Positions 1 to 20,754 of a DNA stretch of 21,035 nt are shown in pieces. Position 1 is the first letter of the stretch. Each line of letters opens with the position of its first letter. The DNA is taken from positions 64,001 to 85,035 of the forward strand of contig NW_027439781.1 in assembly GCF_965152275.1 (NCBI RefSeq), given 5' to 3'. Source of the stretch: Natator depressus (Eukaryota). The notes beneath the pieces are model-generated. The model worked only from the letters and a program-made list of their open reading frames with translations, had not been told where the DNA came from and ran no database searches. A program made the position numbers and the translations under genes.

Positions 1-275
1 AGGTAGGCGAGGGCGGCGGGTGTGTAGCCTGCCCCCTTGTGGCTGGACCTGTTTCTGCACGGCCTCATCATGGACCAAAGGCCTCTGCCCTCATCCTGGG
101 GCCTGCCGGGCGAGCAGCCGGGTCCCCACCTTCCGTCCCCGGCTCTGCCGGGACTGACCTGGGCCCGCGGTGCTCTCTCGATGTCTGGGGCCGGGGCAGA
201 GGGCTGCCGGGCTGGGCCAGGTTTGTCACACGCAGGCAGACGTTAAGGAGCTTGCACTTCTCGTGTTTTCTCACC

Positions 276-1288
276 TGATGCTGACGCAGCCGCCTCTGGG
301 GCGGGGCCGGGGCAGTTCATACGGGGACCCCTGGTCTGGTGCTGAGATGCAGCCGCCTCTGGGGCGGGGCCGGGGCAGTTCATACGGGGACCCCTGGTCC
401 GGTGCTGAGATGCAGCCGCCTCTGGGACGGGGACGGGGCAGTTCATACGGGGACCCCTGGTCCGGTGCTGACGCCGCCGCCTCTGGGGCCGGGCCGGGGC
501 AGTTCATACGGGGACCCCTGGTCCAGTGCTGACGCAGCCGCCTCTGGAGCGGGGCCGGGGCAGTTCATACGGGGACCCCTGGTCCGGTGCTGAGATGCAG
601 CCGCCTCTGGAGCGGGGCCGGGGCAGTTCATACGGGGACCCCTGGTCCGGTGCTGACGCAGCCGCCTCTGGGACGGGGACGGGGCAGTTCATACGGGGAC
701 CCCTGGCCCGGTGCTGACGCAGCCGCCTCTGGGGCGGGGCCGGGGCAGTTCATACGGGGACCCCTGGTCCGGTGCTGACGCAGCCGCCTCTGGGACGGGG
801 ACGGGGCAGTTCATACGGGGACCCCTGGTCTGGTGCTGAGATGCAGCCGCCTCTGGAGCGGGGCCGGGGCAGTTCACAAAGGGACCCCTCGTCCGGTTCT
901 GACGCAGCCACCTCTGGGGTGTGGCCGGGGCAGTTCATACGGGGACCCCTGGTCCGGTGCTGAGATGCAGCCGCCTCTGGAGCGGGGCCGGGGCAGTTCA
1001 TACGGGGACCCCTGGCCCGGTGCTGACGCAGCCGCCTCTGGGACGGGGACGGGGCAGTTCATACGGGGACCCCTGGCCCGGTGCTGATGCAGCCGCCTCT
1101 GGGGCGGGGCCGGGGCAGTTCATACGGGGACCCCTGGTCCGGTGCTGAGATGCAGCCGCCTCTGGGACGGGGACGGGGCAGTTCATACGGGGACCCCTGG
1201 CCCGGTGCTGACGCAGCCGCCTCTGGGACGGGGCAGTTCATACGGGGACCCCTGGCCCGGTGCTGAGATGCAGCCGCCTCTGGGGCAG
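276..1288. repeat. 61-bp minisatellite, about 16-17 head-to-tail copies of CAGCCGCCTCTGGGGCGGGGCCGGGGCAGTTCATACGGGGACCCCTGGTCCGGTGCTGA(GATG/CG). Each unit carries a consensus GC-box, GGGGCGGGGC.
   Basis: Period 61 seen directly (unit starts at 289, 350, 411 and so on). Copies are near-identical, with ACG/GAGATG alternation at the junction. It lies upstream of the MAZ 3' exons and is therefore intronic. Confidence 0.9.
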
Positions 1289-1373
1289 AGCACCGCAGCA
1301 GCAGAGTAGAACAGGCCCCAGGGTTGTGTGGCGGACGCTGACCTGGTGGTTTGTCCTTCTCGCCCCCCCGTAG

Positions 1374-1585
1374 GGTTCACCACAGCGGCCTACCTCCGGG
1401 TGCATGCAGTCAAGGACCACGGACTGTCGGCCCCGCGGGTGGAGCGCTTCCTGTGCAAGCTGTGCGGCGTGCACTGTAAGACCCCGGCACAGCTCAACGG
1501 GCACCTGCAGACGCACGCTGGGGCCGGGGCTGGAGCCGGAGAGGGGCCCGGGGCCGCGCCCGCTGAGGCCCAACCGCTGCGGTGA
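1374..1585 (+). CDS. MAZ: MAZ alternative 3' coding exon, isoform-2 type. It encodes (G)FTTAAYLRVHAVKDHGLSAPRVERFLCKLCGVHCKTPAQLNGHLQTHAGAGAGAGEGPGAAPAEAQPLR*, which includes a C2H2 finger, and ends at TGA 1583-1585.
   Basis: A polypyrimidine tract plus AG acceptor sits at 1351-1373 (ttgtccttctcgcccccccgtag). The exon enters in phase 1 (G|GG TTC). The C2H2 finger CKLCGVHCKTPAQLNGHLQTH and the FTTAAYLR(I/V)HAVKDHG stretch match my recollection of the extra exon specific to human MAZ isoform 2. The canonical MAZ last exon 680 bp downstream, and PRRT2 after that, fit human synteny. Confidence 0.7.
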
Positions 1586-1624
1586 ATCGCCAGGGACAGG
1601 CAAGCTGCTCGCCTACTGGGGGAG

Positions 1625-2085
1625 GGGAGCCTCTGGGCCCTGTGCCCCAAGGTCTATAGAGAACCCCAGTGTCCAGGGGCGGCTGCGTCTGGGGCCTGAG
1701 CCCAAGGTCTATAGGGGACCCCGGCGTCTGGAGGCAGCTGCATCTGGGCCCTGCGCCCCAAGGTCTACAGAGAACCCAGGAGTCCTAGGGGCAGCTGCAT
1801 CTGCGCCCCGAGGTCTGTAGGGAACCCCGGCATCCAGGGGCAGCTGCATCTGAGCCCTGGGCCCCAAGGTCTCTAGAGAACCCCAGTGTCCAGGGGCGGC
1901 TGCCTCTGGGCCCTGCACCCCAAGGTCTATTGAGAACCCCAGCGTCCAGGGGCATCTGCGCCCCAAGATCTATAGGGAACCCGGGAGTCCTGGGGGTGGC
2001 TGTGTCTGGGCCCCAAGGTCTGTAGGGAACCCTGGCGTCCGGAAACAGCTGGGTCTGGGCCCTGTGCCCCAAGATCAAAGGATCT
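1625..2085. repeat. Minisatellite of about 56-60 bp, around 8 copies, unit CCCCAAGGTCTATAGAGAACCCCAGTGTCCAGGGGCAGCTGCATCTGGGCCCTG(C/G).
   Basis: Direct periodicity seen. The core GGTCTATAGAGAACCC recurs 8 times. The array lies between the two MAZ 3' exons. Confidence 0.85.
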
Positions 2086-2267
2086 GGTGTTAGTCCCTCC
2101 CCCGCTCTTAGAGCATGAGTGTGTCTGTCTGATCCAGGGTCTGTCTGTGTGTGGAGGGGGCAGAACTAGCCAGGTGGGAGTCAGTAGGGTTCAGAGTTAA
2201 CAGGATGTGCTGGGGGTATTATGGGAGGCACCCACACACACCCTCTCATCTCTGTCTCCCCCCACAG

Positions 2268-2386
2268 GTACGGGCGAGCTGTGCCCCCTGGCAGCAGCAG
2301 CGGCCCCGCCCACGTCGGCCGTCACTGTCCTGCCCATGGAGGGGGCCCCTGTGGTGAGCCAACCGCTCCCCACGCAGCCCTGGTGA
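2268..2386 (+). CDS. MAZ: MAZ canonical last coding exon. It encodes (G)TGELCPLAAAAAPPTSAVTVLPMEGAPVVSQPLPTQPW* and ends at TGA 2384-2386.
   Basis: Acceptor tctgtctccccccacag at 2251-2267, phase 1 (G|GT ACG). Human MAZ isoform 1 ends ...KGTGEVCPM-polyA-VVAAPPTAVGSLSGAEGVPVSSQPLPSQPW*. GTGE.CP at the start and SQPLP.QPW* at the end are shared with human. Confidence 0.75.
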
Positions 2387-2739
2387 TTCGTGGGGGGCAG
2401 GAGCTGACCCTCCCCCCAAGGTCGTCCCCCCACAGCGCCGCTGGAGCCCCCCACGGCGCTGCCGGAACCAGAACCCGCGGCCAGGGAGGATTGAATGTTG
2501 GGTCCTCTCCTCACGCTTGGCAAAGGGAGGACGCGACACCGGACAGACGGGGGCCCCCCCACCATCCCCTCCCCCCAGAGAGATGGGGACCGCCCACCTC
2601 CCCTGTCCAGACAGGCCACACAGCCTGCCTTCCCCAACCGTCCTCTTCTCCCTGGACAGAGGGGCCCCCCTCACCTCTAAACCCCCCAGTAGCCCCCCCA
2701 ATCCCAAAATCAATCTTACTCGATCCTTGGCTGGGGAAT

Positions 2740-2875
2740 GGGCCGAGGTCTATAGGGGACCCCGGTGTCTGGAGGCAGCTGCATCTGGGCCCTGCGCCCC
2801 AAGGTCTATAGAGAACCCAGGAGTCCTGGGGCAGCTGCATCTGAGGTCTGTAGGGAACCCCTGGCCCAGCCCCAG
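2740..2875. repeat. Second block of the GGTCTATAGAGAACCC minisatellite family, about 2.5 units.
   Basis: Same unit as 1625-2085 (ggccgaggtctataggggaccccggtgtctggaggcagctgcatctgggccctgcgccccaaggtctatagagaaccc...). It lies in the presumed MAZ 3' UTR. Confidence 0.8.
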
Positions 2876-3276
2876 AGCTCCCACCCCCCCCACCAGCCGG
2901 ATTCATGAAGGTGCAGGGGAGCCCAGGGCTGGGCTAGCTGGGGGGTGTCACTGATATTGCTGGGGGCTGGTACCAGCCCTGGTCCAATCCCCCCTCCCAT
3001 AGGGGAGACCTCCGATTCCCTTCTGTCCTGGGGTCCCCCCAGTTTCCCCCTCAGCCTTGGCACCCTTCTGTCCAGGGGTCTCCTGACCCCCCAGACCTCC
3101 CTCTGTCCCGTCCCTCCACCGTTTTCTATGGGATTTTATGATTTATTTTGTTTTCTCGTGTTCGTGTTCTCGGTCCAGCCGCGTCTCGCGTTGACTCAGC
3201 CCCCGCCCCCCTGCATGGCCCCCCCGACGTCTGGGGGTTCCCCCCGCGCTCTTTTGTATTGTATAAAACCACGACG

Positions 3277-3282
3277 AATAAA
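3277..3282 (+). terminator. MAZ: AATAAA poly(A) signal, candidate end of the MAZ transcript, followed by the U/GU-rich stretch ttgagtctttcttct.
   Basis: This is the only canonical AATAAA between the MAZ stop (2386) and the PRRT2 promoter. It sits in an AT-richer island (gtattgtataaaaccacgacgaataaacc). Confidence 0.35.
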
Positions 3283-3334
3283 CCACGCGCCGCCTTGAGT
3301 CTTTCTTCTAACGCGACAGCACCGGGGAACCCCC

Positions 3335-3565
3335 CGTACCCCACTTCCCTCGCTGCCTCCCCGGGGACCCCACTCCCCTCCTGGTGCCCCATATCTCTCC
3401 TTGCCTCCCCGGAGACCACACTCCCCCCCCCCCGGTGCCCCACTTCCCTCCCTGCCTCCCAGGGGACCCCACTCCCCACTGGGACCCCACTTCCCTCCCT
3501 CCGTCCCTGGGGCCCCACTTCCCTGCCTCTCCGGGGACCCATTTCCCTCCTCACCCCCCATGTGT
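3335..3565. repeat. C-rich degenerate minisatellite of about 30-33 bp (CCCCACTTCCCTCCCTGCCTCCCCGGGGAC variants).
   Basis: Recurring CCCACTTCCCTCC...CCGGGGACC motifs, about 7 times. Confidence 0.6.
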
Positions 3566-4107
3566 CAACAGCGAAAGCTTTTAGTGACAATGGTGAAAAC
3601 CCAGCAACCCAATGTCCTTTGTTTATTATAGGGTCTCTCAAAGCCAAGAGCGGGGGGCTGGGTGGAAAGTGAAAGTGGGGGGGTGTCTGTGCCCCCCAAC
3701 ACAGCTCCTGCCACCCTCCCAGCCGGGATCCCCTCCCAGGCACCCCCCAGGCCCCACCCCCACTGCGGGGCTCCCCCGCAGCTCCATGCCCCCAGCTGCT
3801 GCCGGGACCCCCGCGCTGGGGGTGAATCGCTCCCTCCCCTGGGACCCCCCCCCCCGGCGCCGCTCGCCCCATTAAACTGCTAATGAGCCAGGGCCTGAGT
3901 CACCGAGCGGGGAGCGGGAGAACTGGGAGCTGCCCCCCCCCCCGCCTCCTGCAGAGGCGGGGAATCCCAGCGGAGCTGGGGGGGCGGGGGGGCGGGGTGT
4001 TTCTGGGCGGTTCCCGCGGCTCTGGGCCCCCCCGAGTCTCCCCACGAAAAGAGCTAAAATCTCTCGCGCCCAGACCCGCAGCCAACATTTATAACCCGCC
4101 GGGGCGC

Positions 4108-4740
4108 TGGGTGAGCCCTGCGGTGCCCCTCACTCCCGACCTGCAGCCCCCCGACCCAGCCCTGCGGTGCCCCTCACTCCCGACCTGCAGCCCCCCGACC
4201 CAGCCCTGCGGTGCCCCTCACTCCCGACCTGCAGCCCCCCGACCCAGCCCCGCGGTGCCCCTCACTCCCGACCTTCAGCCCCCACAGCCCCGCGGTGCCC
4301 CTCACTCCCGACCTGCAGCCCCCCGACCCAGCCCCGCGGTGCCCCTCACTCCCGACCTGCAGCCCCCCGACCCAGCCCCGCGGTGCCCCTCACTCCCGAC
4401 CTTCAGCCCCCACAGCCCCGCGGTGCCCCTCACTCCCGACCTGCAGCCCCCCGACCCAGCCCTGCGGTGCCCCTCACTCCCGACCTGCAGCCCCCCGACC
4501 CAGCCCCGCGGTGCCCCTCACTCCCGACCTGCAGCCCCCACAGCCCCGCGGTGCCCCTCACTCCCGACCTGCAGCCCCCCGACCCAGCCCTGCGGTGCCC
4601 CTCACTCCCGACCTGCAGCCCCCCGACCCAGCCCCGCGGTGCCCCTCACTCCCGACCTGCAGCCCCCCCCCCGACCCAGCCCTGCGGTGCCCCTCACTCC
4701 CCACCTGCAGCCCCCGCACCACCCGAAGCCACCCTCCCCT
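4108..4740. repeat. 44-bp minisatellite, about 14 copies, unit CCTGCGGTGCCCCTCACTCCCGACCTGCAGCCCCCCGACCCAGC. Some units are 38 bp with ..TTCAGCCCCCACAGC.
   Basis: Perfect or near-perfect 44-bp periodicity seen directly. It lies about 100-800 bp upstream of the putative PRRT2 promoter. A related family fills CDIPT intron 5. Confidence 0.9.
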
Positions 4741-5559: not shown

Positions 5560-6123
5560 ATGTCGGACGACACGGAAAAGGACGAGACACCCCCCCTGGG
5601 GCCAACTGAGCTGCAGTCACCCCCCTCGGCCCCAGACGTTCCCCCCTCGGCCCCAGATGCCCCCCCCTCGGCCCCAGACGTTTCCCCACCGGCACGAGTC
5701 ATTTCCTCGTCTGCCCCACCTGCCCCCCCCTCACCAGCAGTGACTGTGATGGTGGAGGATGAGGGGGAGCCCGAGGAGGGGCCCCAACAAAATGGACAGG
5801 CCGTGGGTGTGGGGGGTGCCCCCTACCCCCCCCAAACCTCCCCCCCCACTCTGGCCCCTGCTCGCTCCAAATCGGCCTCCCTGGGCGACTTGGGGGGCAA
5901 GGCCAGCGCTAACGGGGGGCCGCGGGTGCGGGGCAGCCTGGTGGGGTCCCAGGTGCATCTGGCGGGGGCAGGCTCGCCCCGTCCTAGCCTGAGCCACCAG
6001 CCCTCGGGGGCCGAGGGGGGCCCGGAGGCGGAGAAGCCGCGGGATTACATCCTGCTGGCTGCCCTGGCCTGCTTCTGCCCCATCTGGCCCATCAACATCG
6101 TCGCCTTCGTTTACTCCGTCATG
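5560..6123 (+). CDS. PRRT2: PRRT2 main coding exon (exon begins at 5551 after acceptor cttcgcccag, ATG at 5560). It runs [44 protein letters not shown]...[31 protein letters not shown]|, 188 aa, and ends at donor ATG|GTGAGA.
   Basis: The C-terminal part [30 protein letters not shown] aligns with human PRRT2 [30 protein letters not shown] (CD225/dispanin motif). The proline-rich N-terminus, splice-site geometry and phase-0 junction into the next exon all agree. Confidence 0.85.
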
Positions 6124-6129
6124 GTGAGA

Positions 6130-7010
6130 GCCCCCCCAAGCCTCCCACCGCCCCCCAGAGCCCTCCACCTCCCCTCCAGAGCCCCCCCAAGCCCCCCACC
6201 ACCACCCAGAGCCCCCACCGCACTCCCAGCCCACTCCAGAGTCCCCAACATGCCCCCCAGAAACCTGTGCACCCCAGAAACCCACTCTGTTTCCCAGAGC
6301 CCCCCAGAAAACAACTACCCCCCAGAGCCTCCCACTATGCCCCCAGACCACCCCAGAGCTCCCCATGCTCCCTGGAAACCCACCATGCCCCCCAGAAACC
6401 CACCACACCCCAGAGCTCCCCACCATGCCCCCCCATGCCTGCCAGGAACCCAATGTGCCCCCCAGAGCCCCCCTTTTGCACCCCCTCAGAAACACCACAT
6501 CCCAGAGCCCCCTGCTGCAGCCCTCATGCCCCACAGAAACCCACTGCACCCCCAGAGCCCCCCACCATGCCCCCATGTCCCGCGGAAACCCATTGCACCC
6601 CCCCCAGTCCCCCACCTCACCTGCATGCTCCCCAGAAACCCAGCACCCCCCAGAGCCCCCCAACATGCCCCCAGCATCCCCAACTGCACCCCAAAACTGT
6701 CCACGTCACATCAAAACCCCCACTGCACCTTAGTATTCCACATTGTGCCCCCAACCCACCATGTCCCCAAAGCCCCCAACAACCCCCCACTGCACCCCTA
6801 ATAGCCTCTGGGCCCCAGAAAATCCCAAAGAGTCCAATAACCCCACTGCAGTCCCCAGTCCTCCAAAATACTCCACCCACCCCTCCTGCTGTACCCCAAA
6901 CCCACCAGACCCCCCCCCCCGCATGCCCCATATCCCCCACTATTTCCCCAATAGCTCTCGGGGCCACAGATCTCCCCTGCCCTGCCCCTGCCATGCGGGA
7001 GGGGGTCTCG
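6130..7010. repeat. Degenerate C-rich minisatellite with units of about 36-42 bp (CCCCAGAGCCCCCCACCATGCCCCCCAGAAACCCAC...), filling PRRT2 intron 2.
   Basis: Recurring CCAGAGC(C/T)CCCCA..ATGCCCCC..AGAAACCCA modules, more than 20 times. This explains the Pro-rich ORFs 6267-7019 (+) and 5731-6666 (-). Confidence 0.6.
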
Positions 7011-7078
7011 GGGTGGTGATGTGGGGGGGTTATGGGGCCAGGCGCCCCCCCCATCTTACCCCACGTCTCTCCCCACAG

Positions 7079-7219
7079 TCCCGGAACAGCCTGCAGCAGG
7101 GGGATGTGGACGGGGCGCGGCGGCTGGGCCGTGTGGCCAAACTGCTGAGCATGGTGGCCCTGCTCGGGGGCGTCATCATCATCGTCCTCTCGGTCGCCAT
7201 CAACTTCGGCCGTGAGTGA
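7079..7219 (+). CDS. PRRT2: PRRT2 transmembrane / CD225 exon, [44 protein letters not shown](RE*). The stop at 7217-7219 applies if the exon is unspliced. Alternative GT donors lie after 7211 (C|GTGAGT) or 7215 (GA|GTGAGG).
   Basis: Acceptor ctctccccacag at 7067-7078, phase 0. The sequence is almost identical to human [44 protein letters not shown]. Human then continues VYK* in a separate terminal mini-exon. Confidence 0.85.
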
Positions 7220-7224
7220 GGGGC

Positions 7225-8330
7225 GCAGCCCCCGGAACCTCCCGAATTGCCCCCAGGGACCCCAAATCTCCCCCAGAGCCCCCATATGTCCCCAGGACCC
7301 CAAATCACCCTTGGGACCCCGAAATGCCCCCAGGACCCCGATACATCTCCGGGACCCTGATATGTCCCCAGGACCCCCATAGGCCCACCCAGAATCTTGA
7401 CATGCTCCCAGGATGCTGAAACACTCCCGGGACCCCAAAACGCCCCCGGGACCCCCATACACTCCCAGGACCCCAATATAGCCCCAGGATCTCGATGTGC
7501 ACCTGGGAAGCCCATACACTCCTGGGACCCTGATGCACCCCCTGGGACTCCAATTCACCCCCCGTGACTCCCAGGACCCCAATATGCCCTGCATGACCCC
7601 CTGGGACTCCGGTGCGTCCTGCCCAACCCCCAAGACACAACATGCCCCACATGACCTCCCCGGTACCCCAATTTGCTGCACACATTCCCCCTGGGACCAC
7701 AGAAACACCCCCTGGGATCGCAAAACACCCCGCACAGCCACTTGGGACCCTGAAATACCCCCCAGAACCCCAATACACCCTGCACAATCCCCCTGGGACC
7801 CTGATATGCCCTGGGACCCCCAAATTTTGCTGGCATCCCAATACGCCTTGCAAAATCCCCTGAAACACCCTCTGGGACCCTGATTCACCCCACACAACCC
7901 CACAGGACCTTGAAATGCCCCTAGGATCCTGATATGCCCCTGGGACCCCAGTTCATCCCGCATGACCCCTGGACTCCCAAATGTCCCTCAAGACCCCAAA
8001 AAGGCCCACACAATCCCATGGGACCCCAAAACATCCCCAGGACCCCCCAGACCCTGATATGCCCCTGGAATCCTGATACACCCACCCCTATTACCCCAAA
8101 ATTCCCACCCCTCCTGACCCCCTGGGACCACAGTACACTCCCTGGGATCCCATGAAGCACCCAGGATACACCCCACACGATCCCACTGGGACCCTAAAAT
8201 GCCCCACATGACACCACAGACCCTGATAGGCCTCACATGACCCCCTGGACCCAATATATCCCACACAATGCTCTGGAAGCCCCAAATGCCCCTGTGACGG
8301 GATTCCCGGGGTGCAACCTGGGACTGTGGG
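7225..8330. repeat. Degenerate satellite of about 21 bp, about 50 units, consensus roughly CCC(T/A)GGGACCCCAAAATGCCC.
   Basis: Recurring ggaccccaa/ggaccctga..atgcccc motifs at 20-22 bp spacing throughout. The same family resumes at 9355. Confidence 0.8.
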
Positions 8331-9354
8331 ACAGCTGTGCCCCCCTGAACTCTCTCTCCAGCCTGGGCTGTCTCCCACAATGCCCTGCTAGTGACCAGCA
8401 GCGAACCCCTCCAGGTGCTGTGATCACTCACCTGTCCCCGTGGGGGGAATCACACGCCCGGCTGGGGCCACGCATGGGTCACACAGGGAAAGGCACCAGC
8501 CAGATCCTCCCAGCTCAGGAACACGCCGTCTCGTGCTGCTCCTGACCCGTTCTTGAGCAATGTACGTTTGTTAACTGGTTCCCCACGTCACCAGTGGAGA
8601 GTGGACACACACCAGCCTTTGTAACCCGGGCAGATTTTCCAAACCCTGCAGGCAAACTCCGCGGTAAGGATCCCCACGAGAATCGGCTTCTTGATTACAG
8701 ACGATGGGTTTGAAGTGATAGGCAAGTCAGAGTAGTTACCAAAGGACAATAACAGAGACCTGCGCAGGCTAAATTCCCCACCTAGACACTAGGCAATAGC
8801 GGGACGAAGTCGTTTTTCTCACCCTGCTGGATGCTGCAGGTTGGTTGGAGTCTCACACGCCGGCTCGCCCTGTTAGCCTGGGGACCAGTCTCCTCAGCTC
8901 CAGCCTCCTCCCTGCCTCCAGTGTGGGGTGGGGGAGGAGAAAGGAGAAACCATGTGGCCCCTGTCCCCTCTTTTCCACGGTCAGGCCCTGTGCTTGGAGA
9001 GCACGAGTCCAGGCATGTCTGGTCTGGGGGCATTGCTGAGACCCCAGACAAGGCTGAGCAATTCCCCTGCCGGAGAGTCACTGAACTGTAGCTCCCTTGC
9101 TGGACAACGGCTGTTGATGGTTGTTCGACACCCACCTGGGCATCAGTCTGTTCCCTTGCTGGTGTCTCTGGGCAGCTACTATCTGGCCGATTCCCCAACT
9201 CACAACCGTACCACACAGTCTCATAACTCCCCACGCACCGATGACAGACACGTTTCGCTAGAACCTTTCCCCTTGTACCTCACCGGGCCTGTTTTATACG
9301 CAGTACCCCAATCCTATCCAAACGAGGAATAGGGAGGTTACCGGGCACTCCCCT

Positions 9355-9860
9355 GAGGTATGGAGTGCCACACCCCCACCCTGGAACCCCAAAACCCCCC
9401 TGGGACCCAGCGCAACTCCCTGGGACCACAAAATACCCCCTTCGATCCCTATTTGCCACACACAATCCTCTTGGACCCCAAATCTTCCTCAGGGCCCCAG
9501 TACGCCTCAGACAACCCCATGATGCCCCACACAACCTCCCAGGACCACGCTCTGCCCACATGACCCCCCTGGAACCACCCAAACAAGATCTCCAAATGAC
9601 TCCCACAGACCCCAATACACCCCACGTGACTCCCAGGATCCTGAAACATCACCCCCCAAGGTCTTGATACACCAAGCTCTTGATGCACGATTCCCTGCCA
9701 AAAAAGCCCAGCACAACCCCCCCACCCCGGACTTTCATACACCCTGAATGGCCCTCCCCCGATACACCCCACATGACCCCTCCAGGACTTCAACCCTCCC
9801 CCGCCCCCGGACCCTGATATGCCCCAAACGACTTCCCTGGGACCCTGAGATGCCCTGCAT
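9355..9860. repeat. Second block of the 21-bp CCCTGGGACCCCAA satellite.
   Basis: Same motifs as 7225-8330. The two blocks flank the unique segment 8340-9350. Confidence 0.75.
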
Positions 9861-10189
9861 TAACTGTCCTTCTCTTCCCCACCCACACCTCTCCCTGACC
9901 CTATGCTGCCCCCCTGCTCCCCCTCCCTGTTCCCCCTTCTCCTGACCCCCCCATCCCTCCCCAGTGTTCCAGTGAAGACGACTCCGTGCTGTCCCCAGCC
10001 CCCCCAACCCAGGAGCCCCCCTGGCACTGCTCTAATGGGGACCAACCATCCAGGGGGGCCGAGGGGGCGGAGAGGGGGATTACGGCAGCCAACAGAGGGG
10101 TGTGGCCTCCAATCCCCCTTCCGCCTCGGGGACGGAGCCAGAAAAGAAGAACAGGAGAGAATGGAGGAAGAAACCCCTCTCCATCTGTC

Positions 10190-10640
10190 CACCCGTATGC
10201 CTTCATCCGTCTGTCCCGCTGTCCATCCAGCCATTCTGCCATCCAACCATCCGTCCCGCTGTCCATCCGTCCATCCATCCCACTATCCATCTAGCCGTCC
10301 TTCCAGCCATTCTGCCATCCATCCTTGCGTCCGTCCATCCATCCCAGAGTCCTACTGTCCATCTAGCTGTCCTGCAGTCCGTCCAGTCTGCTGTCCGTCC
10401 AGTCGTCTACCGACTTATCCATCCAGTGATGCATCTCTCTGTCCACCCACCCATCCATTCATCTCCCCGGCCATCCATCCGTCTGTCCATTCATCCATCC
10501 ATCTCCCCTGTCACCCATCCATCCAGTGATGTATCTGTCCACCCATCCTGCCGTATGTCCATCCATCCATCCAGCTACCCATCCCTTCATCTGTCCATCC
10601 AGCCTTCTGCCAACTCATCCATCCATCCAGTGACACTCCC
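10190..10640. repeat. Degenerate (CCAT/CCGT)n tetranucleotide microsatellite (ccatccatccgtctgtccatcc...).
   Basis: Seen directly. It explains the Ser/Pro/His-rich ORFs 9903-10529 and 10102-10728. Confidence 0.8.
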
Positions 10641-10721
10641 TCCATTTGGCCTTCTTTCTGTCCCTCCCCTCACTCCCTTTCCTTGCCCTCCCTCCCTTCT
10701 GGCTCATTGCCCCTTCGACAG

Positions 10722-10728
10722 CAAATAA
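10722..10728 (+). CDS. PRRT2: Hypothetical PRRT2 terminal micro-exon, C AAA TAA. With the 7215 donor (phase 2) it gives ...FGR-D-K-stop. The stop codon TAA is embedded in the poly(A) signal AATAAA at 10724-10729.
   Basis: There is a 70-nt polypyrimidine tract plus CAG acceptor at 10640-10721. AATAAA follows immediately after. The human gene also ends with a 3-aa mini-exon ending in K. Frame compatibility depends on choosing the 7215 donor. Confidence 0.2.
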
Positions 10729-12139
10729 AACTCTTTCGATTTCCATGTTTACAAGACAAGAAAAAGCGCGGGCCCGAGACGCCAGAGGGACCCCTCGGCT
10801 GCCAGGGGCACGTTTACATCCCAGCTTGCCCCATCCCAAACGGACGAATGAAACAGAGCCAGCGATGGAAACCCCAACGCCCCTTCTCCCCTGGCTCCCC
10901 GCTGCACGGGGACACGGCCAGCCAGGAACTGGGATTTTGGGGCCCACAGCGGGACACGGAACAAAAGAACAAAGAAGGGGGCAAAAAGGAGAGATGCCGC
11001 TGGGCGCCAATTCCTCGTTGATCCTATTTACAACCCCACATCAGCCAACGGGGGAGATGGGTGGGCGGTGTCTGAATGGGGACGGAAGAGGGAGAAAGGT
11101 GGAGAGGTGGCTGGAGGTTCCCCTCCTGCCCTGCCTCAGGCTAGTCACGTTTCGGGGGGCGAGGAAGGACAGAACGAAACAGGCCAAAGGGAGGAGAGAT
11201 GCCGGCACCTCGTTGGCTGCACCTCCTTGCCCCTCTGGCGGGTCGGGCTAACGAACCTGCGGCAGGGCCGAGGGGGGATGCCGGCGCCGGGGGGCCCGGA
11301 AGAACAGAACAAGAAAGGCCCGACGGAGGAGTGGGGCGGGAACCGGCCCAACGCCAACCCCACCCTGGCGCGCCAAGTGACTTCAGACTGTTACAGACCC
11401 AACCTTGCGGGGACGGGGATGGTTTTGGGGGGCAGGGGAATGCCCCCAGCCAAGCCCCCCCTTTCAGGTCCCATCTTTTGCACGCTATCCACTGGGTAAT
11501 TGGGGGGGGCAGGAGCACAGGGCTGGGGACAGTACAATTGGGGAGGAAATGGGGGGGGGCAGCAGGAATTTTCAGGGGGGGATGAAGGGGCTTGTGTTTT
11601 GATGCTGACATGCCTGTATTATACATGCACGTTTTTCTATACTCTATTGTTGGGGGTGATGGGGGCAGGGGGTCACTCCCAGATGGGCCCTGGAGGTGAC
11701 CAGGGTGGCTTCAATATCGGTGGAGGGGGGCCTGGGACACATTAAAAAAAAGCATTTGTGTAAAGGGAAGGAGGGATTTAAGCCATTTGGGGGGCCAGGG
11801 GGTCGGCTCCCATCTGGCCCCACAGCGGGCAACTGCTGGCTGACAGGGGAGGGGAATAAGTCTCCCCTCCCCCCCTTAAATCCTCCTTACGTGGAGGATG
11901 TGGAATGGCCCCACGTCCATCAATTGGGGGGAGGGGGTTGCATAGTGGGTTTTAACCCCCACGGGAAATAATTCCCAGCCCCCTGTTTTTCCAGAGAACC
12001 CCCAAACCAGGGTAAATCTGAACCCCAGGGCCCAGTGCCCCCTGGCTCCCCGGGGCCTGTTTTGTAGCGATTCGGATGCATGAGAAGCCAATAAACTGAT
12101 GCACGAGAACGGGTCCATGTGTCTGTCTGCAGGAAGCTG

Positions 12140-12590
12140 GGCTCTGGCCGCCCCCCCTCTGTCGGTCCCCCCTGCCCCCTCTAACCCCCTCCTGCAGCCC
12201 CCCAGAGACCCCATCCCACGGTCCCCTGTAACCAGCCCCCACGCCCCCCCCACACCACTGTCCCACGGGTCCCCTCTAACCCCCTCCTGCAGCCCCCCAG
12301 AGACCCCATCCCACAGGTCCCCTGAAACCAGCCCCCCTGCCCTACTCCAGAGAAACCCCCTCCCAGTGCTGGGCCAGGGGTCTCCCTAAATCCAGCCCCT
12401 GCACCCCACTGAGGCCCCATCCAAGTGCCAGGCCCAGGGTTCCCCTATAACCAGTCCTCTCGCCCCACCCCAGAGTAGCTGTGTCCCAGCACCAGACCAG
12501 GGGGTCCCCTGTAACCAGCACCCCTGCCCCAGAGCAGCCGTGTCCTGGCCCCAGACCAGGGGTCCCCATGTACCCAGTGCCCCCCGCCCG
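12140..12590. repeat. Degenerate repeat of about 60 bp (CCCCCAGAGACCCCATCCCACGGTCCCCTGTAACCAGCCCCC... / CCAGACCAGGGGTCCCCTGTAACCAGCACCCCTGCCCCAGAGCAGC).
   Basis: Recurring ccagagaccccatcccac and gtcccct(g/c)taaccag modules, seen directly. Confidence 0.6.
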
Positions 12591-12623
12591 GTTGAAATGA
12601 GAGGCTGGGATTGACGGCCTGCT

Positions 12624-12629
12624 CTTTAT
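12624..12629 (-). terminator. CDIPT: Candidate CDIPT poly(A) signal. AATAAA on the minus strand reads TTTATT on the plus strand.
   Basis: This is the only canonical hexamer downstream of the CDIPT stop (13553) on the minus strand. It implies a 3' UTR of about 0.9 kb that would include the 60-bp GCAAAGCATTGTGGGAAA array. Confidence 0.3.
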
Positions 12630-12879
12630 TGTAGCTGGGACCCCTCCCCACAGCAGGGGTCAGTTGCCCCCCAACCCCCGAGGGGCAGGGTCGAGTCCCA
12701 GCGGAGTCGAACATCCACCACACACATGGAGACGCTTACGCAGGGGAAGCGGCCGTCTGCTGAGGGGCGGGGGGCACGGGCCTGGGCTCCCCTGGGGGGG
12801 GCAGATGAGGAATGACACCCCCCCCCTCGCTGGGGGCAGTGAGGCATCCGCACTCAGGGGAGAGCAGAAGGGGCAAAAA

Positions 12880-13552: not shown

Positions 13553-13704
13553 CTACTTCTTCTTGGCCCGCTCGGCGGCGTCCCGGGCGGCCATATTGCA
13601 GGAGGCAGAGACGAGCTGCACGAGGCTGATGAGGGACTTGAGGGCGGCGAGGGGGGTCGAGACCCAGAGGATGAGACGGAAAAGACCCAGGCGTCCGGGG
13701 AGCA
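13553..13704 (-). CDS. CDIPT: CDIPT last coding exon, (V)LPGRLGLFRLILWVSTPLAALKSLISLVQLVSASCNMAARDAAERAKKK*, with stop TAG at 13553-13555.
   Basis: Matches human CDIPT C-terminus ...VGLFRMGLWVTAPIALLKSLISVIHLITAARNMAALDAADRAKKK*. Acceptor cccctcag (minus strand), phase 1. Coordinates are derived from the ORF-track frame. Confidence 0.9.
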
Positions 13705-13744: not shown

Positions 13745-14345
13745 TGCACGCCAGGCGGTGCCCCCCACTCCCGACCCACAGCCCCCCGCCAGCCCAGCCC
13801 CGCCCCCCCCAGCCCTGCCGGTGCCCCCCACTCCCGACCCACAGCCCCCCGCCAGCCCAGCCCCGCCCCCCCCAGCCCTGCTGGTGCCCCCCACTCCCAA
13901 CCCGCAGCCCCCCGCCAGCCCAGCCCCACCCCCCCAGCTCTGCGGTGCCCCCCACTCCCGACCCGCAGCCCCCCGCCAGCCCAGCCCCACCCCCCCAGCT
14001 CTGCGGTGCCCCCCACTCCCGACCCGCAGCCCCCCGCCAGCCCCCCCAGCTCTGCGGTGCCCCTCACTCCCGACCCGCAGCCCCCTGCTAGCCCAGCCCC
14101 ACCCCCCCAGCTCTGCGGTGCCCCTCACTCCCGACCCGCAGCCCCCCGCCAGCCCAGCCCTGCCGGTGGCCCTCACTCCCGACCCGCAGCCCCCCACCAG
14201 CCCAGCCCTGCCCCCCCAGCTCTGCGGTGCCCCTCACTCCTGACCCACAGCCCCCTGCCAGCCCAGCCCTGCCCCCCCAGCTCTGCCGGTGCCCCTCACT
14301 CCCGACCCACAGCCCCCCGCCAGCCCAGCCCTGCCAGTGCCCCCC
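13745..14345. repeat. 61-63-bp minisatellite, about 10 copies, unit CTGC(C)GGTGCCCC(C/T)CACTCCCGACCCGCAGCCCCCCGCCAGCCCAGCCCCGCCCCCCCAGCC. It is a longer relative of the 44-bp family at 4108-4740 and fills CDIPT intron 5.
   Basis: Periodicity seen directly. The core GGTGCCCCTCACTCCCGACC(T/C)GCAGCCCCCCG is shared with the 44-bp array, in the same + orientation. Confidence 0.85.
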
Positions 14346-14374
14346 ACTCCGACCTGCAGCCCCGATGCGCCCAC

Positions 14375-15496: not shown

Positions 15497-17249
15497 CTGC
15501 AGCGGGCGACAGAGCCACAGTGCTCCTCAGTCCCGACCCGCAGCCCCTCGGCCCGGGGCTCCCTGCCCCGTTACAGCCCCTGCCCCACGCCGCTCCCAAC
15601 CCACGGGGGAGACGCCCAGACTCCTCCGGGGCCGGGGGGGCCGTTGGGAGCATCTGGTGTGAGCCCCCACATCACCCTGGCGCAGACCCGAGAACCCCCG
15701 GCTGGGCTGAGCCATCGCCAGTACTGGAGAATTCCTGTCGGCCCGGAGGGAGCGGTTCTGCCTGGGCCGTATTTACAGCCTCTTTCCAGGCCAGGATCGT
15801 CCTGCCGCTGGGGCACGTCAGACCTTTCTCGGCGGGACTGACGAGCCACAAGGTAACGATCTGTTCCCCACGGAGGTGCTGCCAGGCCGGGCTCCAGTCA
15901 CCCTGGAGCCAGCTCTGCGTTAAGCTGAACAGCTGGAGCCTCTCCCTCGAGGGCAGGTTTCTGATCCTTTCATCCTTCCCGGGGCTCTTCTCTGACCCCT
16001 CCAATGGATCAACATCCTCCTGGAACTGCAGGCACCAGAGCCGGCCCCGGGATCCCAGCCGCGGCCGCCCCAGGACTGAATCCAGAGGGAAAATCCCCCT
16101 GTTTGCACAGCCCAGGATGGCATTGGCCCTTTTGGCCCCAGCATTGCACTGGGCGCTCTTCTTCTGCTGATTAACCCCCGCCCCCCCTTGCTGAGAGTCC
16201 CTGCGTCCCAGGACAGAGCCCCCCAGCCTGTAAGTGCAGCCGGCACTCGTCCTGCCCAGGGACCAGCATTTACATTGAGCTGGGTTAAACCAGTGTCTGC
16301 TTGTGCCCGTTTACCCAGCCATCCAGCTGGCTCTGGACCAGTGACCTCTGCTCTGCGACACTTCCCACCTCCCACCCCCAATGTTCGGGTCAGCTGCAAA
16401 CTTCACTGGTGAGGACGAGACACCAGGTGAAGCCAGCCAGACAAGGCAACGCTGAGACGCTATTGTGAGTCTGGGACCGCTCCCCTCCCTCCTTCCTTCC
16501 TGGGCTGGGGGAGGACAGGGACAGGGTGGGCAGGGGGCTGCATCGCCCTCAGCATGCTCCTGTTCTGATCCAGCCTCATGCTCCAAGGCAGCAGCCTCGC
16601 AGGGGTCAGGAAGGAGGGTTTGCCTCCTCCTCATTCCGCCACTGGAGCCAGGGCACTGCCTGGCTGGCGAGTCAAGCCCTGAGCCAGTCCCCACGGGGCC
16701 AGCCTGGAAAGGTAACCCCAATGCACTAGAGGCAGCGACTCCAAGGGGCCAGAGTTAAACGCATTAAGCCCCAGTGTGGACGCTCTTGCTCAAAATTAAG
16801 TTGGCTTAACTTAATTCACTTGGGAAGCAAAACTGAATTAAGGGCACCGCAGTGCCAACTGAGGGCGTTCACACTGGGGTTTGATGGGGGTCAGCGCCTC
16901 CACTTCTGCTTGACAGCGACAGTGAATTCAGATGGACTCCCCCAGCTGGCCCTGTGCAGACAAACCCCACATCTGAAGGCAAGCTGGATGGTGCAAGGGA
17001 TGCCCTGGGTACAGCAGCGCGTGGGGGCCCATCTCAGCCCCCACCAGATGGGAGAAACCCAAAGGGGCGGTCGGTAGGCATAATGGGGACCGGCTGCCTG
17101 TGCCTGGTTGCTGGAGAAGGGGCACCTGGGCACTGCGGGGGACCCGGTCGAGCTGGATCTGTCCATGCTGGAGGGGATGGTGCAGGGTGGCAGAGTTTGA
17201 GCTGGGTGTGACACCCTGGCACCCCAATATTCGCAACTGTCATGTAATG

Positions 17250-18050
17250 AGGACGTGTTCGGTACAAAGTGCATCTTGTGAGGGGTCATTCTAAAAGTCT
17301 TGATCTGCAAGACAGTCGTATCTCGTTGGAGTGTCTGCGCAGTCGTCGTGTGGGAAGTGATAGGTTTGGCTATTTGTGTGAGTTACTGAAACATGTCGTG
17401 AGGTTGAAAACACCCACAAGTAGCCTTTCCGGTACAACCGTAAAAAGGCCAAACACTGTTAATAGCTTTCTGAGGAAATGCACCAAAGCACCAGGGATTA
17501 CCCCAGGGACTGTGTGCAACAGAAACCTCTCAGAGATAGCTCTGCACAATGGGAACTGTCTGACCCCAGGGCACAGCAAAAGAGCTTTCCAGGAAGTGGG
17601 GAGAAGATAGAAAAAGGGGGAAATGACATCATGTATCACCCTCCCTCTCTCTACAACTCCACACCTGGAAACACCCGAGGGGCAAGGACTGAACGGGGGA
17701 AGGGATGGTCCCAGGCTAAGGGATTTCTAGCCTGTGTATGAAAACCTGGGACACCCAAACTGCAAAGACAAGGTAGCTTGTGCCTTAAGAATTTGCCAGC
17801 TTGTTTATTGCTCAGGGTGAGAATTTGCTAATTCATCTCCTACCTGTCTAGTGCATTAAACTCAGTTTGCGTTTTTGTTTACTTGCTAGGTGACCTGCTT
17901 TGTTCTGTTCGCTCTCACTTTAATATCTTAAAATCTATCCTTTTGTAGCTAATAAACTTATGTCATGTTTTAATCCAAACCAGTATGCGTTTGACTAGGG
18001 TGCGTGGGGAAAAATCTCAGCATGGTTACCACAAGTGTGAATGGTTCTCA
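17250..18050. mobile_element. AT-richer (about 45% GC), non-satellite block in CDIPT intron 1 with LTR-like features: an internal AATAAA (gtagctaataaacttatg, about 17945) and TG...CA-type ends. Possibly a solo LTR or other transposable-element remnant.
   Basis: Composition is sharply different from the surrounding 65-70% GC. There is no coding potential and no tandem structure. The family is not identified. Confidence 0.25.
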
Positions 18051-18512
18051 TCCCATTGAGGGTGAGGGGGACTGGGTGTTACACCCATATACTGGCGAGA
18101 TTTGACCAGAGCAGGATGGTACCGCTCTGGGGTCCTAGGCTGGGAGGCTGCTGGTTAGAGAGCCTGCATGTGGCTGCAGCTGGGTGTGTCCCGACCTGTG
18201 CAAATGCTGGTGAAGGTGCAGACTGGGGGGCTTTGCAGCTTGTCACAGCAGCACACTGTGAGAGGGAGCCCAGGCTGGTGGGTCAGGGGCTCAGTGGCAC
18301 CCCCAGTTCCAGCTGGCACCCCAGGGGGGAACCCATCATACCAGGGACCTGCCACGAGAGCTCTGGGCCACTGGTTCCTGGGATGGCTCCGACCTGGCCC
18401 CAGGGCAGGGGACAGGGCAGCTCGGGGGACATGAAAGGGACTAGGGGCTGTCCCCTGGGGGACACCAACTCTGACCCAGCTCTGAGGATCCCCCCAGGCT
18501 CCCCTCACTCAC

Positions 18513-18558
18513 CAATGAGGTTCGGCACAAAGAGGAAGATGTTTTCGTCCTTCATCAT
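18513..18558 (-). CDS. CDIPT: CDIPT first coding exon, MMKDENIFLFVPNLI(G), with donor ATTG|GTGAGT. The start is ATG at 18556-18558 (a second in-frame ATG lies at 18553-18555). An acceptor-like cacccacag lies immediately 5', suggesting a separate 5'-UTR exon further upstream.
   Basis: Matches human MPDENIFLFVPNLIG. Phase 1 out joins the GC TAC... exon at 15496 across an intron 1 of about 3 kb. Confidence 0.85.
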
Positions 18559-18594
18559 CTCTGTGGGTGCAGGATCCGCTGCCTCCCACCCCTC

Positions 18595-18905
18595 AGCCAG
18601 CCCTGGGGTCCCCCCGAGCCAATGCACCAGCCCTGCCCCCCCTGGGGTCCCCCCCGAGCCAATGCACCAGCCCTGCCCCCCGCACCAGCCCTGGGGTCCC
18701 CCCCCAGCCAATGCACCAGCCCTGGGGTCCCCCCCCAGCCAATGCACCAGCCCTGCCCCCCGCACCAGCCCTGGGGTCCCCCCCCAGCCAATGCACCAGC
18801 CCTGCCCCCCGCACCAGCCCTGGGGTTCCCCCCCAGCCAATGCACCAGACCTGCCCCCCCGCACCAGCCCTGGGGTCGCCCCCCAGCCAATGCACCAGCC
18901 CTGCT
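18595..18905. repeat. Minisatellite of 34 bp and 51 bp units, unit CCAGCCCTGGGGTCCCCCCCAGCCAATGCACCAG (with or without CCCTGCCCCCCGCA), about 8 copies. Each unit carries a CCAAT box (AGCCAATGC).
   Basis: Seen directly. It starts 37 bp 5' of the CDIPT start-codon exon, on the gene's upstream side. Confidence 0.85.
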
Positions 18906-19269
18906 GTGGCGCAGAGCGGGAAGAACAAATGTCCGCTGCCCCTTTAAGATCCCCGGGACTCTTACGCCCCACCCCCCACGGCCCTGTTGGGCTGTACCAA
19001 GCTGTCCTGGGGGGGGAGGGCGGTGGCGGGAACGGGGTTTGCGAGGGCGGGGGGATAGTGAGCCCCATTCGGGAGGAACCGTTTCATCTGAGGGGGTTTC
19101 ACCCTCCTCTTAGGGACGAGGGGGTGTCACACTCCAGCCCCCAGTTGGTTCAGTCCGGGATGTTCCATTCTCCCCCCTTGCTGTGGCCGGGTTGGCGTCG
19201 CTCAGGTTCAGCCATAGAGCACCTGACGGGCTGCTGGCTAGAGCGGCCCTGCCCTGACCCGTCCGGGGA

Positions 19270-19310
19270 AGGCCGCCATTTTGAATTCGTCGCAACTTCC
19301 GGGTTCCGGC
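19270..19310 (-). promoter_or_regulatory. CDIPT: Candidate core promoter of CDIPT (possibly bidirectional). It has the YY1 motif GCCGCCATTTTG (19272-19283) and two ETS/GABP-type motifs ACTTCCGGG and GTTCCGG (19295-19309).
   Basis: Motifs seen directly. This is the typical TATA-less housekeeping promoter grammar. It lies about 0.7 kb 5' of the CDIPT ATG on the gene's side. I cannot confirm the transcription start or the 5'-UTR exon boundaries. Confidence 0.3.
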
Positions 19311-19379
19311 ACTCCAAATCATGTGACACCCAGTTACCCAATCGGGGCAGAGATGCATGAAGTGATGCTCGCAAAGAAC

Positions 19380-19875
19380 TTCCCAGGATCCCCTGGGGCC
19401 GGCCTGGCCCGTTTCCCAGAATGCCCCGGGGCCGGCCTGGCCCGTTTCCCACAATCCCCCAGGCCCATCTTGGCCCATTTCCCACAATCCCCCGGGGCCG
19501 GCCTCGCCCGTTTCCCACAATCCCCCAGGCCTGTCCTGGTCCGTTTCCCACAATCCCCTGGGAACGGCTTGGCCTGTTTCCCAGAATGCCCGGCGGCCGG
19601 CCTGTCCTGTTTCCCAGAATCCCCCAGGCCCGTCCTGGCCCATTTCCAGAATGCCCCGGGGCTGGCCTGGCCCATTTCCCAGAATGCCCGGGGCCTGCCT
19701 GGCCCATTTCCCACAATCCCCCAGGCTGTCCGGGCCCATTTCCCACAATTCCCCGGGGCCAGCCTGGCCCGTTTCCCAGAATGCCCCGGGCCCAGCCTGG
19801 CCCGTTTCCCACAATCCCCCAGGTCCGGACTGGCCCGTTTCCCAGAATGCCCTGGGCCCGGCCTGGCTGACCTCC
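19380..19875. repeat. 33-bp minisatellite, about 15 copies, unit GGCCCGTTTCCCAGAATGCCCCGGGGCCGGCCT with CACAATCCCCCAGGCC variants.
   Basis: Periodicity seen directly. It explains ORFs 19281-20093 (+), 19110-19916 (-) and 19150-20001 (-). Confidence 0.85.
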
Positions 19876-20615: not shown

Positions 20616-20754
20616 CTGGGTCACAAAGGCCCCCCCCATCATGGTCCTCCAGCCGCACGGCCTCCACCTGGGGGGACATGTCAGCCAGATGGGGCAGCGG
20701 GGGCGGGGGGCAGAACTGACGGGCAGGTGGGGGCTGAGTCGGGGGAGGAGGTTA

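What the first reader, a model, noticed from the sequence alone, without database searches (positions are those of the whole stretch)
7079..10760. Unresolved PRRT2 C-terminus: read-through stop versus a 3-codon terminal micro-exon whose stop codon lies inside AATAAA
After ...AINFG the sequence reads CGT GAG TGA. Either translation ends here (RE*), or one of two overlapping GT donors is used (GGCC|GTGAGT or CGTGA|GTGAGG). At 10640-10721 there is an unusually long polypyrimidine tract ending in CAG, followed directly by CAAATAAAAC. With the 7215 donor (phase 2) this gives GA+C AAA TAA, which is D-K-stop, and the TAA is part of the poly(A) hexamer. Human PRRT2 also ends with a tiny terminal exon encoding ...VYK*. 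The 3.5-kb intron would contain the 21-bp satellite and the (CCAT)n tract.
Basis: inference. Interest (0 to 1): 0.5.

Follow-up and report, generated by a model that had tools for sequence, protein, structure and literature searches.

The report
PRRT2 terminal micro-exon, already annotated

Summary
The window is the Natator depressus MAZ-like / PRRT2 / CDIPT locus. Its two candidate endings are not the conserved one.

The conserved splice donor is the first GT (exon 3 = 7079-7211, phase 1). It joins a strong acceptor at 9963-9964. The terminal exon begins TG TTC CAG TGA (9965-9975), so the protein ends ...AINFG-LFQ*.

- This 235-aa product is identical to N. depressus PRRT2 isoform X2 (XP_074797732.1).
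- The same junction gives LFQ* in five turtles. The split codon is C|TG, or T|TG in Emydura; both encode Leu.
- It gives VFQ* in two birds and a lizard. Spliced mammalian transcript contigs end VYK*.
- The read-through stop RE* exists only in the three sea turtles examined (family Cheloniidae) and is part of the donor consensus GTGAGTGA.

The AATAAA at 10724 is the first plus-strand poly(A) hexamer after the stop. It sits in a block that is nearly invariant between turtles and a lizard, so it is most likely the PRRT2 poly(A) signal, giving a 3'UTR of about 770 nt. RefSeq isoform X1 uses an acceptor at 10756 and has a non-conserved 88-aa tail. Verdict: already known, low interest.

The parts
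5560..6123 (+). PRRT2 exon 2, coding part. ATG at 5560; the exon probably starts at 5551, after cgcccag. It ends ...FVYSVM|GTGAGA, phase 0.
   Evidence: The product is identical to XP_074797732.1.
7079..7211 (+). PRRT2 exon 3 (133 nt): SRNSLQQ...AINFG plus the first base (C) of a split Leu codon. The donor is C|GTGAGT at 7211|7212.
   Evidence: The donor position and phase are the same in 5 turtles, 2 birds and 1 lizard.
7217..7219 (+). In-frame TGA reached only if intron 3 is retained (RE*). It forms part of the donor context GTGAGTGA.
   Evidence: It is present only in the three cheloniids. Gopherus, Emydura and Ciconia read on for 27 to more than 45 codons.
7212..9964 (+). Intron 3 (2753 nt, phase 1). 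It contains the C-rich 19-21-bp satellite and has no plus-strand poly(A) hexamer.
9885..9964 (+). 3' splice site of the terminal exon: an 84% pyrimidine tract, CTGAC branch-like motif at -23, and ccctccccAG.
   Evidence: The sequence ccatccctccccag is identical in all five turtles.
9965..9975 (+). Coding part of terminal exon 4: TG TTC CAG TGA. With the C at 7211 it encodes Leu-Phe-Gln-stop.
   Evidence: The motif occurs once in the window and in 0 of 100 shuffles. The product is in RefSeq.
9976..10745 (+). PRRT2 3'UTR; the end is approximate and inferred from the poly(A) signal. It includes the (CCAT)n-like tract (about 10190-10620) and the pyrimidine tract 10640-10718.
10724..10729 (+). AATAAA, the inferred PRRT2 poly(A) signal. 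It lies inside the conserved block 10713-10755 (TTCGACAGCAAATAAAACTCTTTCGATTTCCATGTTTACAAG).
   Evidence: It is the first plus-strand hexamer after the stop. The block is nearly invariant in 5 turtles and in Podarcis.
10756..11021 (+). Alternative terminal exon 4b of RefSeq isoform X1 (acceptor AG at 10754-10755). It encodes the tail HKKKRGPETP...APIPR*, with stop at 11019-11021.
   Evidence: The tail frame and length are not conserved, and it has no Pfam domain.
13553..13555 (-). Stop codon of the convergent downstream gene CDIPT (...AARDAAERAKKK*). Its minus-strand AATAAA is at 12625-12630.
   Evidence: The gene tables of related loci show the same arrangement.

Best explanation
This is the ordinary 3' end of PRRT2 in the flatback turtle. 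Exon 3 (7079-7211) is spliced from its conserved phase-1 donor (C|GTGAGT) across a 2.75-kb satellite-rich intron. It joins the acceptor at 9963-9964. The terminal exon contributes only TG TTC CAG TGA to the coding sequence, so the protein ends ...AINFG-L-F-Q. This tripeptide corresponds to the minimal extracellular tail V338-K340 of human PRRT2. The rest of the terminal exon is a 3'UTR of about 770 nt that carries the (CCAT)n tract and the pyrimidine-rich stretch. It ends at the conserved AATAAA at 10724. The immediate stop RE* is a by-product of the donor sequence GTGAGTGA and would be read only from an intron-retaining transcript.

Shown here: the sequence features, the cross-species conservation, and identity with the annotated proteins. 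Inferred: that this junction and this poly(A) site are actually used in this species.
For: - The model ATG 5560-6123 + 7079-7211 + 9965-9975 translates to a 235-aa protein. It is identical to N. depressus PRRT2 isoform X2 (XP_074797732.1 / CAM5072698.1).
- The donor position and phase and the micro-exon are conserved. Natator, Chelonia, Caretta, Gopherus and Emydura all give LFQ*. The split codon changes synonymously, from C|TG to T|TG in Emydura. Ciconia and Phalacrocorax give VFQ*, and Podarcis gives VFQ*.
- Intronless mammalian transcript contigs read ...AAC TTG GGC G|TG TAT AAG TGA, which is VYK*.
- Census of tails among the retrieved proteins: VFQ 15, LFQ 8, AFQ 1, VYK 3, LFK 1.
- The motif Y5-AG-TN-TTY-CAG-TGA occurs once in the window and in 0 of 100 shuffles. 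A looser motif is expected 0.03 times by chance.
- There is no plus-strand AATAAA, ATTAAA, AGTAAA or TATAAA between 7000 and 10724.
- In all five turtles the first plus-strand AATAAA after the stop is the homologous hexamer, 337-1078 nt downstream, in a nearly invariant block. The same block follows the lizard stop by 431 nt.
- In human PRRT2, TM2 ends at G337 and is followed by the extracellular tripeptide V338-K340 (PMC10164911). The human gene has four exons, with exons 2-4 coding (PMC9712732).
Against: - No RNA-seq, Iso-seq or poly(A)-site data for this species could be examined. RefSeq and GenBank models are predictions whose evidence I could not see.
- The base before the donor is C (T in Emydura) rather than the usual G.
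- RefSeq also lists isoform X1, which uses a different terminal exon (10756 onward). LFQ may therefore not be the only product.
- Sequence conservation continues about 120 nt beyond the expected cleavage site (to about 10875 against Emydura). A poly(A) signal alone does not explain that.
Confidence: 0.9

Rival explanations
1. Read-through model: intron 3 is not removed and translation stops at TGA 7217-7219, so the main product ends ...AINFGRE.
For: - The in-frame TGA is present.
- RE would be a tail of similar length to LFQ.
- Phalacrocorax also has an immediate stop, GK*.
- Intron-3-retaining models exist for mammals, Pelusios, Terrapene and Sphenodon, so retention as a minor isoform is plausible.
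Against: - The stop is not conserved. In Gopherus, Emydura and Ciconia, read-through runs on for 27 to more than 45 unrelated codons.
- There is no poly(A) hexamer anywhere in intron 3.
- The exact RE protein is not in the collection, whereas the LFQ protein is.
- The donor and the micro-exon are conserved from turtles to mammals.
Confidence: 0.05
2. One reading: the second GT (7215|7216, phase 2) is spliced to the CAG at 10719-10721, giving ...GRDK* with the TAA inside the AATAAA.
For: - The pyrimidine tract 10640-10718 is exceptional (top 0.5%).
- It is AG-free for 90 nt.
- It has a CTCAT branch-like motif at -19.
- It ends in the first AG, so in sequence terms it looks like a real 3' splice site. 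The tract and the AG are conserved in Emydura.
Against: - No retrieved protein ends RDK, and the exact product is absent from the collection.
- The second GT is just +5/+6 of the GTGAGT consensus. Its own context decays from GTGAGG to GTGTGG in Gopherus and GTGCGC in Emydura.
- The predicted tail changes to CEE* in Emydura.
- The model would skip the conserved LFQ exon.
- Conservation of CAGCAAATAAA is explained by the poly(A) signal, which a lizard shares 431 nt after its own VFQ stop.
Confidence: 0.02
3. Alternative terminal exon: the region just past the AATAAA is a functional alternative last exon (7211 to 10756, RefSeq isoform X1). It would give PRRT2 an 88-aa extracellular tail, and the pyrimidine tract and AG the reader saw would belong to this splice site.
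For: - The exact 320-aa product is N. depressus isoform X1 (XP_074797731.1).
- The same junction is modelled in Caretta, Pangshura, Mauremys mutica and M. reevesii.
- The acceptor context TTTACAAG|ACAAG is invariant in five turtles, and conservation runs on to about 10875.
Against: - The tail is not conserved as protein. It is 88 aa in cheloniids, 69 aa in another frame in Gopherus and Mauremys, and 32 aa in Emydura.
- Substitutions against Caretta are 2 synonymous and 6 non-synonymous, roughly neutral, on small numbers.
- It has no Pfam domain.
- An upstream AG (10720-10721) lies between the pyrimidine tract and this acceptor, and the nearest branch-like motif is only 8 nt away.
- In the lizard, conservation stops at TTTACAAG.
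- It may be a minor or non-productive transcript.
Confidence: 0.25

Closest known systems
Natator depressus PRRT2 isoform X2 (XP_074797732.1; GenBank CAM5072698.1)
   Same: Identical over all 235 residues to the product of 5560-6123 + 7079-7211 + 9965-9975.
   Different: Nothing differs. This is the same gene, so the finding is already annotated.
Human PRRT2 (four exons; last exon encodes V338-Y339-K340)
   Same: The architecture matches: a large exon 2, a short exon 3 ending after the TM2 glycine, a phase-1 intron, and 11 coding nt (2 nt + 2 codons + TGA) in the last exon. Both have a CD225 domain.
   Different: The tripeptide is LFQ instead of VYK. The N-terminal proline-rich region is shorter (235 against 340 aa). 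The poly(A) context differs. In the mammal PRRT2 is followed by PAGR1; here it is followed directly by convergent CDIPT.
Sauropsid PRRT2 models ending [VL]FQ (Gopherus evgoodei, Chrysemys picta, Emydura macquarii, Dermochelys X5, squamates, Ciconia, Phalacrocorax)
   Same: The donor phase, micro-exon sequence (AG|T[GT]TT[CT]CAGTGA) and synteny with CDIPT are the same.
   Different: Birds and most squamates have Val (G|TN) where turtles and geckos have Leu. Intron 3 length ranges from 786 to 2773 nt in the loci measured.
Intron-3-retaining PRRT2 isoforms (mammalian ...INLGGEYKREG..., ...GGEWGSG...; Pelusios ...FGRELGG...; Sphenodon ...FGREYSAG...)
   Different: In cheloniids retention ends after two codons, because the donor context happens to read GTGAGTGA. 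Elsewhere it adds long unrelated tails.

Membership tests
PRRT2 orthologue (CD225/dispanin family) | CD225 (PF04505) domain at the C-terminus | tested here: met
   hmmscan gives E = 2e-24 and 85.9 bits (cut-off 27.1) over residues 159-225 of 235.
PRRT2 orthologue (CD225/dispanin family) | Best reciprocal similarity to proteins named PRRT2, and conserved synteny | tested here: met
   The top hits are turtle PRRT2 at 93% identity, and there is an exact match to N. depressus PRRT2. The order C2H2 zinc-finger gene, PRRT2, convergent CDIPT is seen in Chelonia, Caretta, Gopherus and Emydura. Birds share PRRT2 followed by convergent CDIPT.
PRRT2 orthologue (CD225/dispanin family) | Phase-1 intron after the TM2 glycine, and a terminal exon with 11 coding nt giving the tripeptide [VLA][FY][QK] | tested here: met
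   The junction is C|GTGAGT ... ccccAG|TG TTC CAG TGA. The same junction occurs in 5 turtles, 2 birds and 1 lizard, and in spliced mammalian contigs.
PRRT2 orthologue (CD225/dispanin family) | The junction is actually used in transcripts of this species | not testable with these tools
   No RNA-seq for N. depressus was accessible. Only the RefSeq and GenBank models are available.
   None of the 170 retrieved sequences does. The exact RDK product is absent from the collection.
   The context goes from GTGAGG to GTGTGG (Gopherus) and GTGCGC (Emydura, Ciconia). The GT itself is +5/+6 of the first donor.
Canonical vertebrate poly(A) signal | An AAUAAA hexamer, first after the stop, conserved in position and context | tested here: met
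   It is the only plus-strand hexamer between 7000 and 11741. It is invariant in 5 turtles together with 26 nt of downstream sequence, and it is shared with Podarcis.
Canonical vertebrate poly(A) signal | A U/GU-rich downstream element, and cleavage 10-30 nt after the hexamer | tested here: inconclusive
   The downstream sequence ACTCTTTCGATTTCCATGTTTACAAG is T-rich and conserved. The cleavage site itself cannot be observed with these tools.

The most novel reading that the evidence does not exclude
The conserved block 10640-10760 (pyrimidine tract, AG, AATAAA, T-rich element, second AG) could be a dual-purpose element. On this reading, polyadenylation of the canonical LFQ exon competes with use of a 3' splice site for an alternative last exon (RefSeq X1, 10756-11021). 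This would be a turtle-wide switch between the tripeptide-tailed PRRT2 and a form with a long, fast-evolving extracellular tail or a non-coding 3' extension.
Probability: 0.12. Interest if true: 0.3.

Novelty: already known. Interest (0 to 1): 0.08.

Why it matters
It matters only for annotation. It fixes the PRRT2 C-terminus in this window as ...AINFGLFQ, which agrees with RefSeq. It also shows that the three-residue tail after TM2 and its phase-1 micro-exon are conserved between sauropsids and mammals in the loci and transcripts examined. Shark models ending IFQ suggest the tail is older still.

A practical lesson follows. When a coding exon seems to end in GTGAGTGA with an immediate stop, a conserved micro-exon may lie kilobases downstream. 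Comparative sequence finds it easily.

No new biology is implied.

Tried and rejected
- Donor consensus alone does not discriminate. GCC|GTGAGT matches all six intronic consensus positions and TGA|GTGAGG matches five. I therefore relied on comparative evidence and ran no formal splice-site scoring.
- Joining 7211 to 10722 in phase 1 gives an unrelated tail, PNKTLSISMF..., that matches no homologue.
- An Rfam scan of 7000-12800 gave only sub-threshold chance hits, best E = 0.12. The block conserved beyond the poly(A) signal is therefore not a known RNA family.
- I looked for direct transcript evidence in Logan assemblies for turtles. None was among the hits. Only mammalian spliced contigs were found.
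- The look-up of encoding contigs failed for the N. depressus proteins and for Dermochelys and Mauremys. The window's identity with the N. depressus contig therefore rests on the exact protein matches.
- A synonymous/non-synonymous count for the 4b tail rests on too few substitutions to be decisive.
Full report
**What is in the window**

The finding lies in a GC-rich, tandem-repeat-rich locus. A C2H2 zinc-finger gene sits upstream; I call it MAZ-like from synteny and my own knowledge of the human 16p11.2 gene order. PRRT2 follows on the plus strand. CDIPT is on the minus strand, with its stop at 13553-13555 and the C-terminus ...AARDAAERAKKK*.

PRRT2 exon 2 carries the ATG at 5560 and ends ...FVYSVM|GTGAGA at 6123. 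Exon 3 starts at 7079, after an AG.

**Checking the observation**

- ...AINFG is followed by CGT GAG TGA at 7211-7219.
- GT dinucleotides lie at 7212 and 7216.
- The tract 10640-10718 is 85% pyrimidine, in the top 0.5% of 79-nt windows for 7212-12600. It is AG-free for 90 nt and ends in CAG followed by CAAATAAAAC.
- Joining 7215 to 10722 does give R-D-K-stop.
- The 19-21-bp satellite and the period-4 TCCA tract are real.

**What relatives show**

A first protein search returned vertebrate PRRT2 sequences, including two bird models ending ...INFGVFQ. I fetched both bird loci. In both, PRRT2 is followed by a convergent CDIPT. Exon 3 ends GGC G|GTGAGT in Ciconia and GGG G|GTAAGT in Phalacrocorax, which is phase 1. 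A terminal exon begins ...cccAG|TT TTT CAG TGA or ...cccAG|TG TTT CAG TGA.

I then searched the window for the same arrangement. There is exactly one site: ccatccctccccAG|TG TTC CAG TGA at 9965-9975. With the C at 7211 it reads CTG TTC CAG TGA, which is L-F-Q-stop.
- The motif Y5-AG-TN-TTY-CAG-TGA occurs once in the window and in none of 100 shuffles.
- A looser version allowing any [FY][KQ]-stop is expected 0.03 times by chance.
- The 77 nt upstream are 84% pyrimidine and carry a CTGAC branch-like motif at -23.

**Species identity and annotation**

A search with the full-length model gave turtle PRRT2 proteins at up to 93% identity. The census of tails among all retrieved sequences is VFQ 15, LFQ 8, AFQ 1, VYK 3, LFK 1 and HKKKRG... 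5. None ends RDK.

An exact-sequence look-up gave the following.
- The 235-aa LFQ model is Natator depressus PRRT2 isoform X2 (XP_074797732.1, CAM5072698.1).
- A 320-aa model joining 7211 to 10756 is N. depressus isoform X1 (XP_074797731.1).

The window is therefore from the flatback turtle, and its PRRT2 C-terminus is already annotated.

**Comparative test of the three endings**

I fetched the loci of Chelonia mydas, Caretta caretta, Gopherus evgoodei and Emydura macquarii. The window is about 94% identical to Chelonia and about 91% identical to Caretta across the gene.
- **Micro-exon.** In all five turtles the phase-1 donor joined to the micro-exon gives LFQ*. The split codon is C|TG in the four cryptodires (hidden-necked turtles) and T|TG in the pleurodire (side-necked turtle) Emydura. 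This synonymous change keeps Leu across the junction.
- **Read-through.** It gives RE* only in the three cheloniids. Gopherus reads on for 27 codons, Emydura and Ciconia for more than 45, and Phalacrocorax gives GK*. The stop is thus an accident of the donor context GTGAGTGA.
- **Second GT.** It is simply +5/+6 of the GTGAGT consensus. Its own context decays from GTGAGG to GTGTGG and GTGCGC.
- **Lizard.** Podarcis muralis has GGA G|GTGAGT ... cctcAG|TG TTC CAG TGA.
- **Mammal.** Three intronless transcript contigs from Logan read ...AAC TTG GGC G|TG TAT AAG TGA. This shows the same phase-1 junction in spliced RNA.
- **Human.** TM2 ends at G337 and is followed by a minimal extracellular tripeptide V338-K340 (PMC10164911). 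The gene has four exons, with exons 2-4 coding (PMC9712732). The micro-exon therefore encodes exactly that tripeptide.

**The AATAAA**

There is no plus-strand AATAAA, ATTAAA, AGTAAA or TATAAA between 7000 and 10724. Intron 3 therefore offers no canonical poly(A) signal for a read-through mRNA. The hexamer at 10724 is the first one after the stop at 9975, 748 nt downstream.

In each of the five turtles the first plus-strand AATAAA after the stop is the homologous hexamer, 337-1078 nt downstream. The block AATAAAACTCTTTCGATTTCCATGTTTACAAG is nearly invariant among them, and the pyrimidine tract upstream is also conserved. In Podarcis the same block follows the VFQ stop by 431 nt...TTCGACAGCAAATAAAACTCTTTCGATATTCCATGTTTACAAG. 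The birds have a single plus-strand AATAAA 607 and 753 nt after their stops, in a different context.

The simplest reading is that 10724 is the PRRT2 poly(A) signal. The pyrimidine tract and the (CCAT)n tract are then 3'UTR sequence. This step is inference; the cleavage site could not be observed.

**The secondary isoform**

RefSeq isoform X1 uses AG 10754-10755, so exon 4b starts at 10756, with its stop at 11019-11021. The same junction is modelled in Caretta, Pangshura and two Mauremys species. Several points argue against a conserved protein-coding function.
- The tail is not conserved as protein: 88 aa in cheloniids, another frame in Gopherus and Mauremys, and 32 aa in Emydura.
- Substitutions look neutral, though on few counts.
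- It has no Pfam domain.
- The AG at 10720-10721 lies between the pyrimidine tract and this acceptor.

I cannot tell whether X1 is transcript-supported.

**Verdict**

It paired the wrong donor with the wrong acceptor. The true ending is ...AINFGLFQ*, encoded at 9965-9975. This is an ordinary, already annotated gene structure.

Noticed in passing
window 10713-10755; L007 9597-9640: The block around the PRRT2 AATAAA (TTCGACAGCAAATAAAACTCTTTCGATTTCCATGTTTACAAG) is almost identical in five turtles and in a lacertid lizard. Two birds and a mammalian transcript share a different context (TTTGTAT..GCATG..AATAAA..CTGCATG). Against Emydura, conservation continues to about 10875, beyond what a poly(A) site needs.
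   Followed up: partly
window 10756-11021: This is RefSeq isoform X1's alternative last exon (tail HKKKRGPETP...APIPR*). It begins 26 nt after the AATAAA. An upstream AG (10720-10721) lies between the pyrimidine tract and its acceptor. The tail frame is not conserved among turtles.
   Followed up: partly
window 9965-10290 read in frame 0: GenBank and RefSeq models for Chelonia (X1), Dermochelys (X1-X4), Lepidochelys and Eretmochelys skip exon 3. They read the 3'UTR, including the (CCAT)n tract, as protein (CSSEDDSVL...HPSIHP...). They use the same 9965 acceptor but lose TM2, so they are probably non-functional or artefactual.
   Followed up: partly
window 4114-4715 and 13755-14363: Two related C-rich satellites lie on the same strand. 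One has a 44/128-bp unit and lies upstream of PRRT2. The other has a 61-bp unit and lies inside CDIPT. They share the core GCGGTGCCCC(T/C)CACTCCCGACC(T/C)GCAGCCCCCC and cross-match in the other turtles.
   Followed up: no
window 279-1286: A 61-bp tandem repeat of about 16 copies at 89% identity lies just upstream of the zinc-finger ORF at 1310-1582. It is also present in Chelonia and Emydura.
   Followed up: no
window 11731-11986: A stretch of 256 bp, including ATTAAA at 11741, is present here and in Caretta but absent from the Chelonia mydas locus (L003).
   Followed up: no
window 19380-19867: A 33-bp tandem repeat (14.9 copies, 79% identity) lies downstream of CDIPT. The gene content of 16000-21035 was not examined.
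   Followed up: no
L008 (Logan SRR25884655 contig), 227-3809: A mammalian transcript contig joins the PRRT2 mRNA to a PAXIP1_C (PAGR1) ORF. In turtles and birds no such gene lies between PRRT2 and CDIPT, so the local gene order differs from mammals.
   Followed up: no
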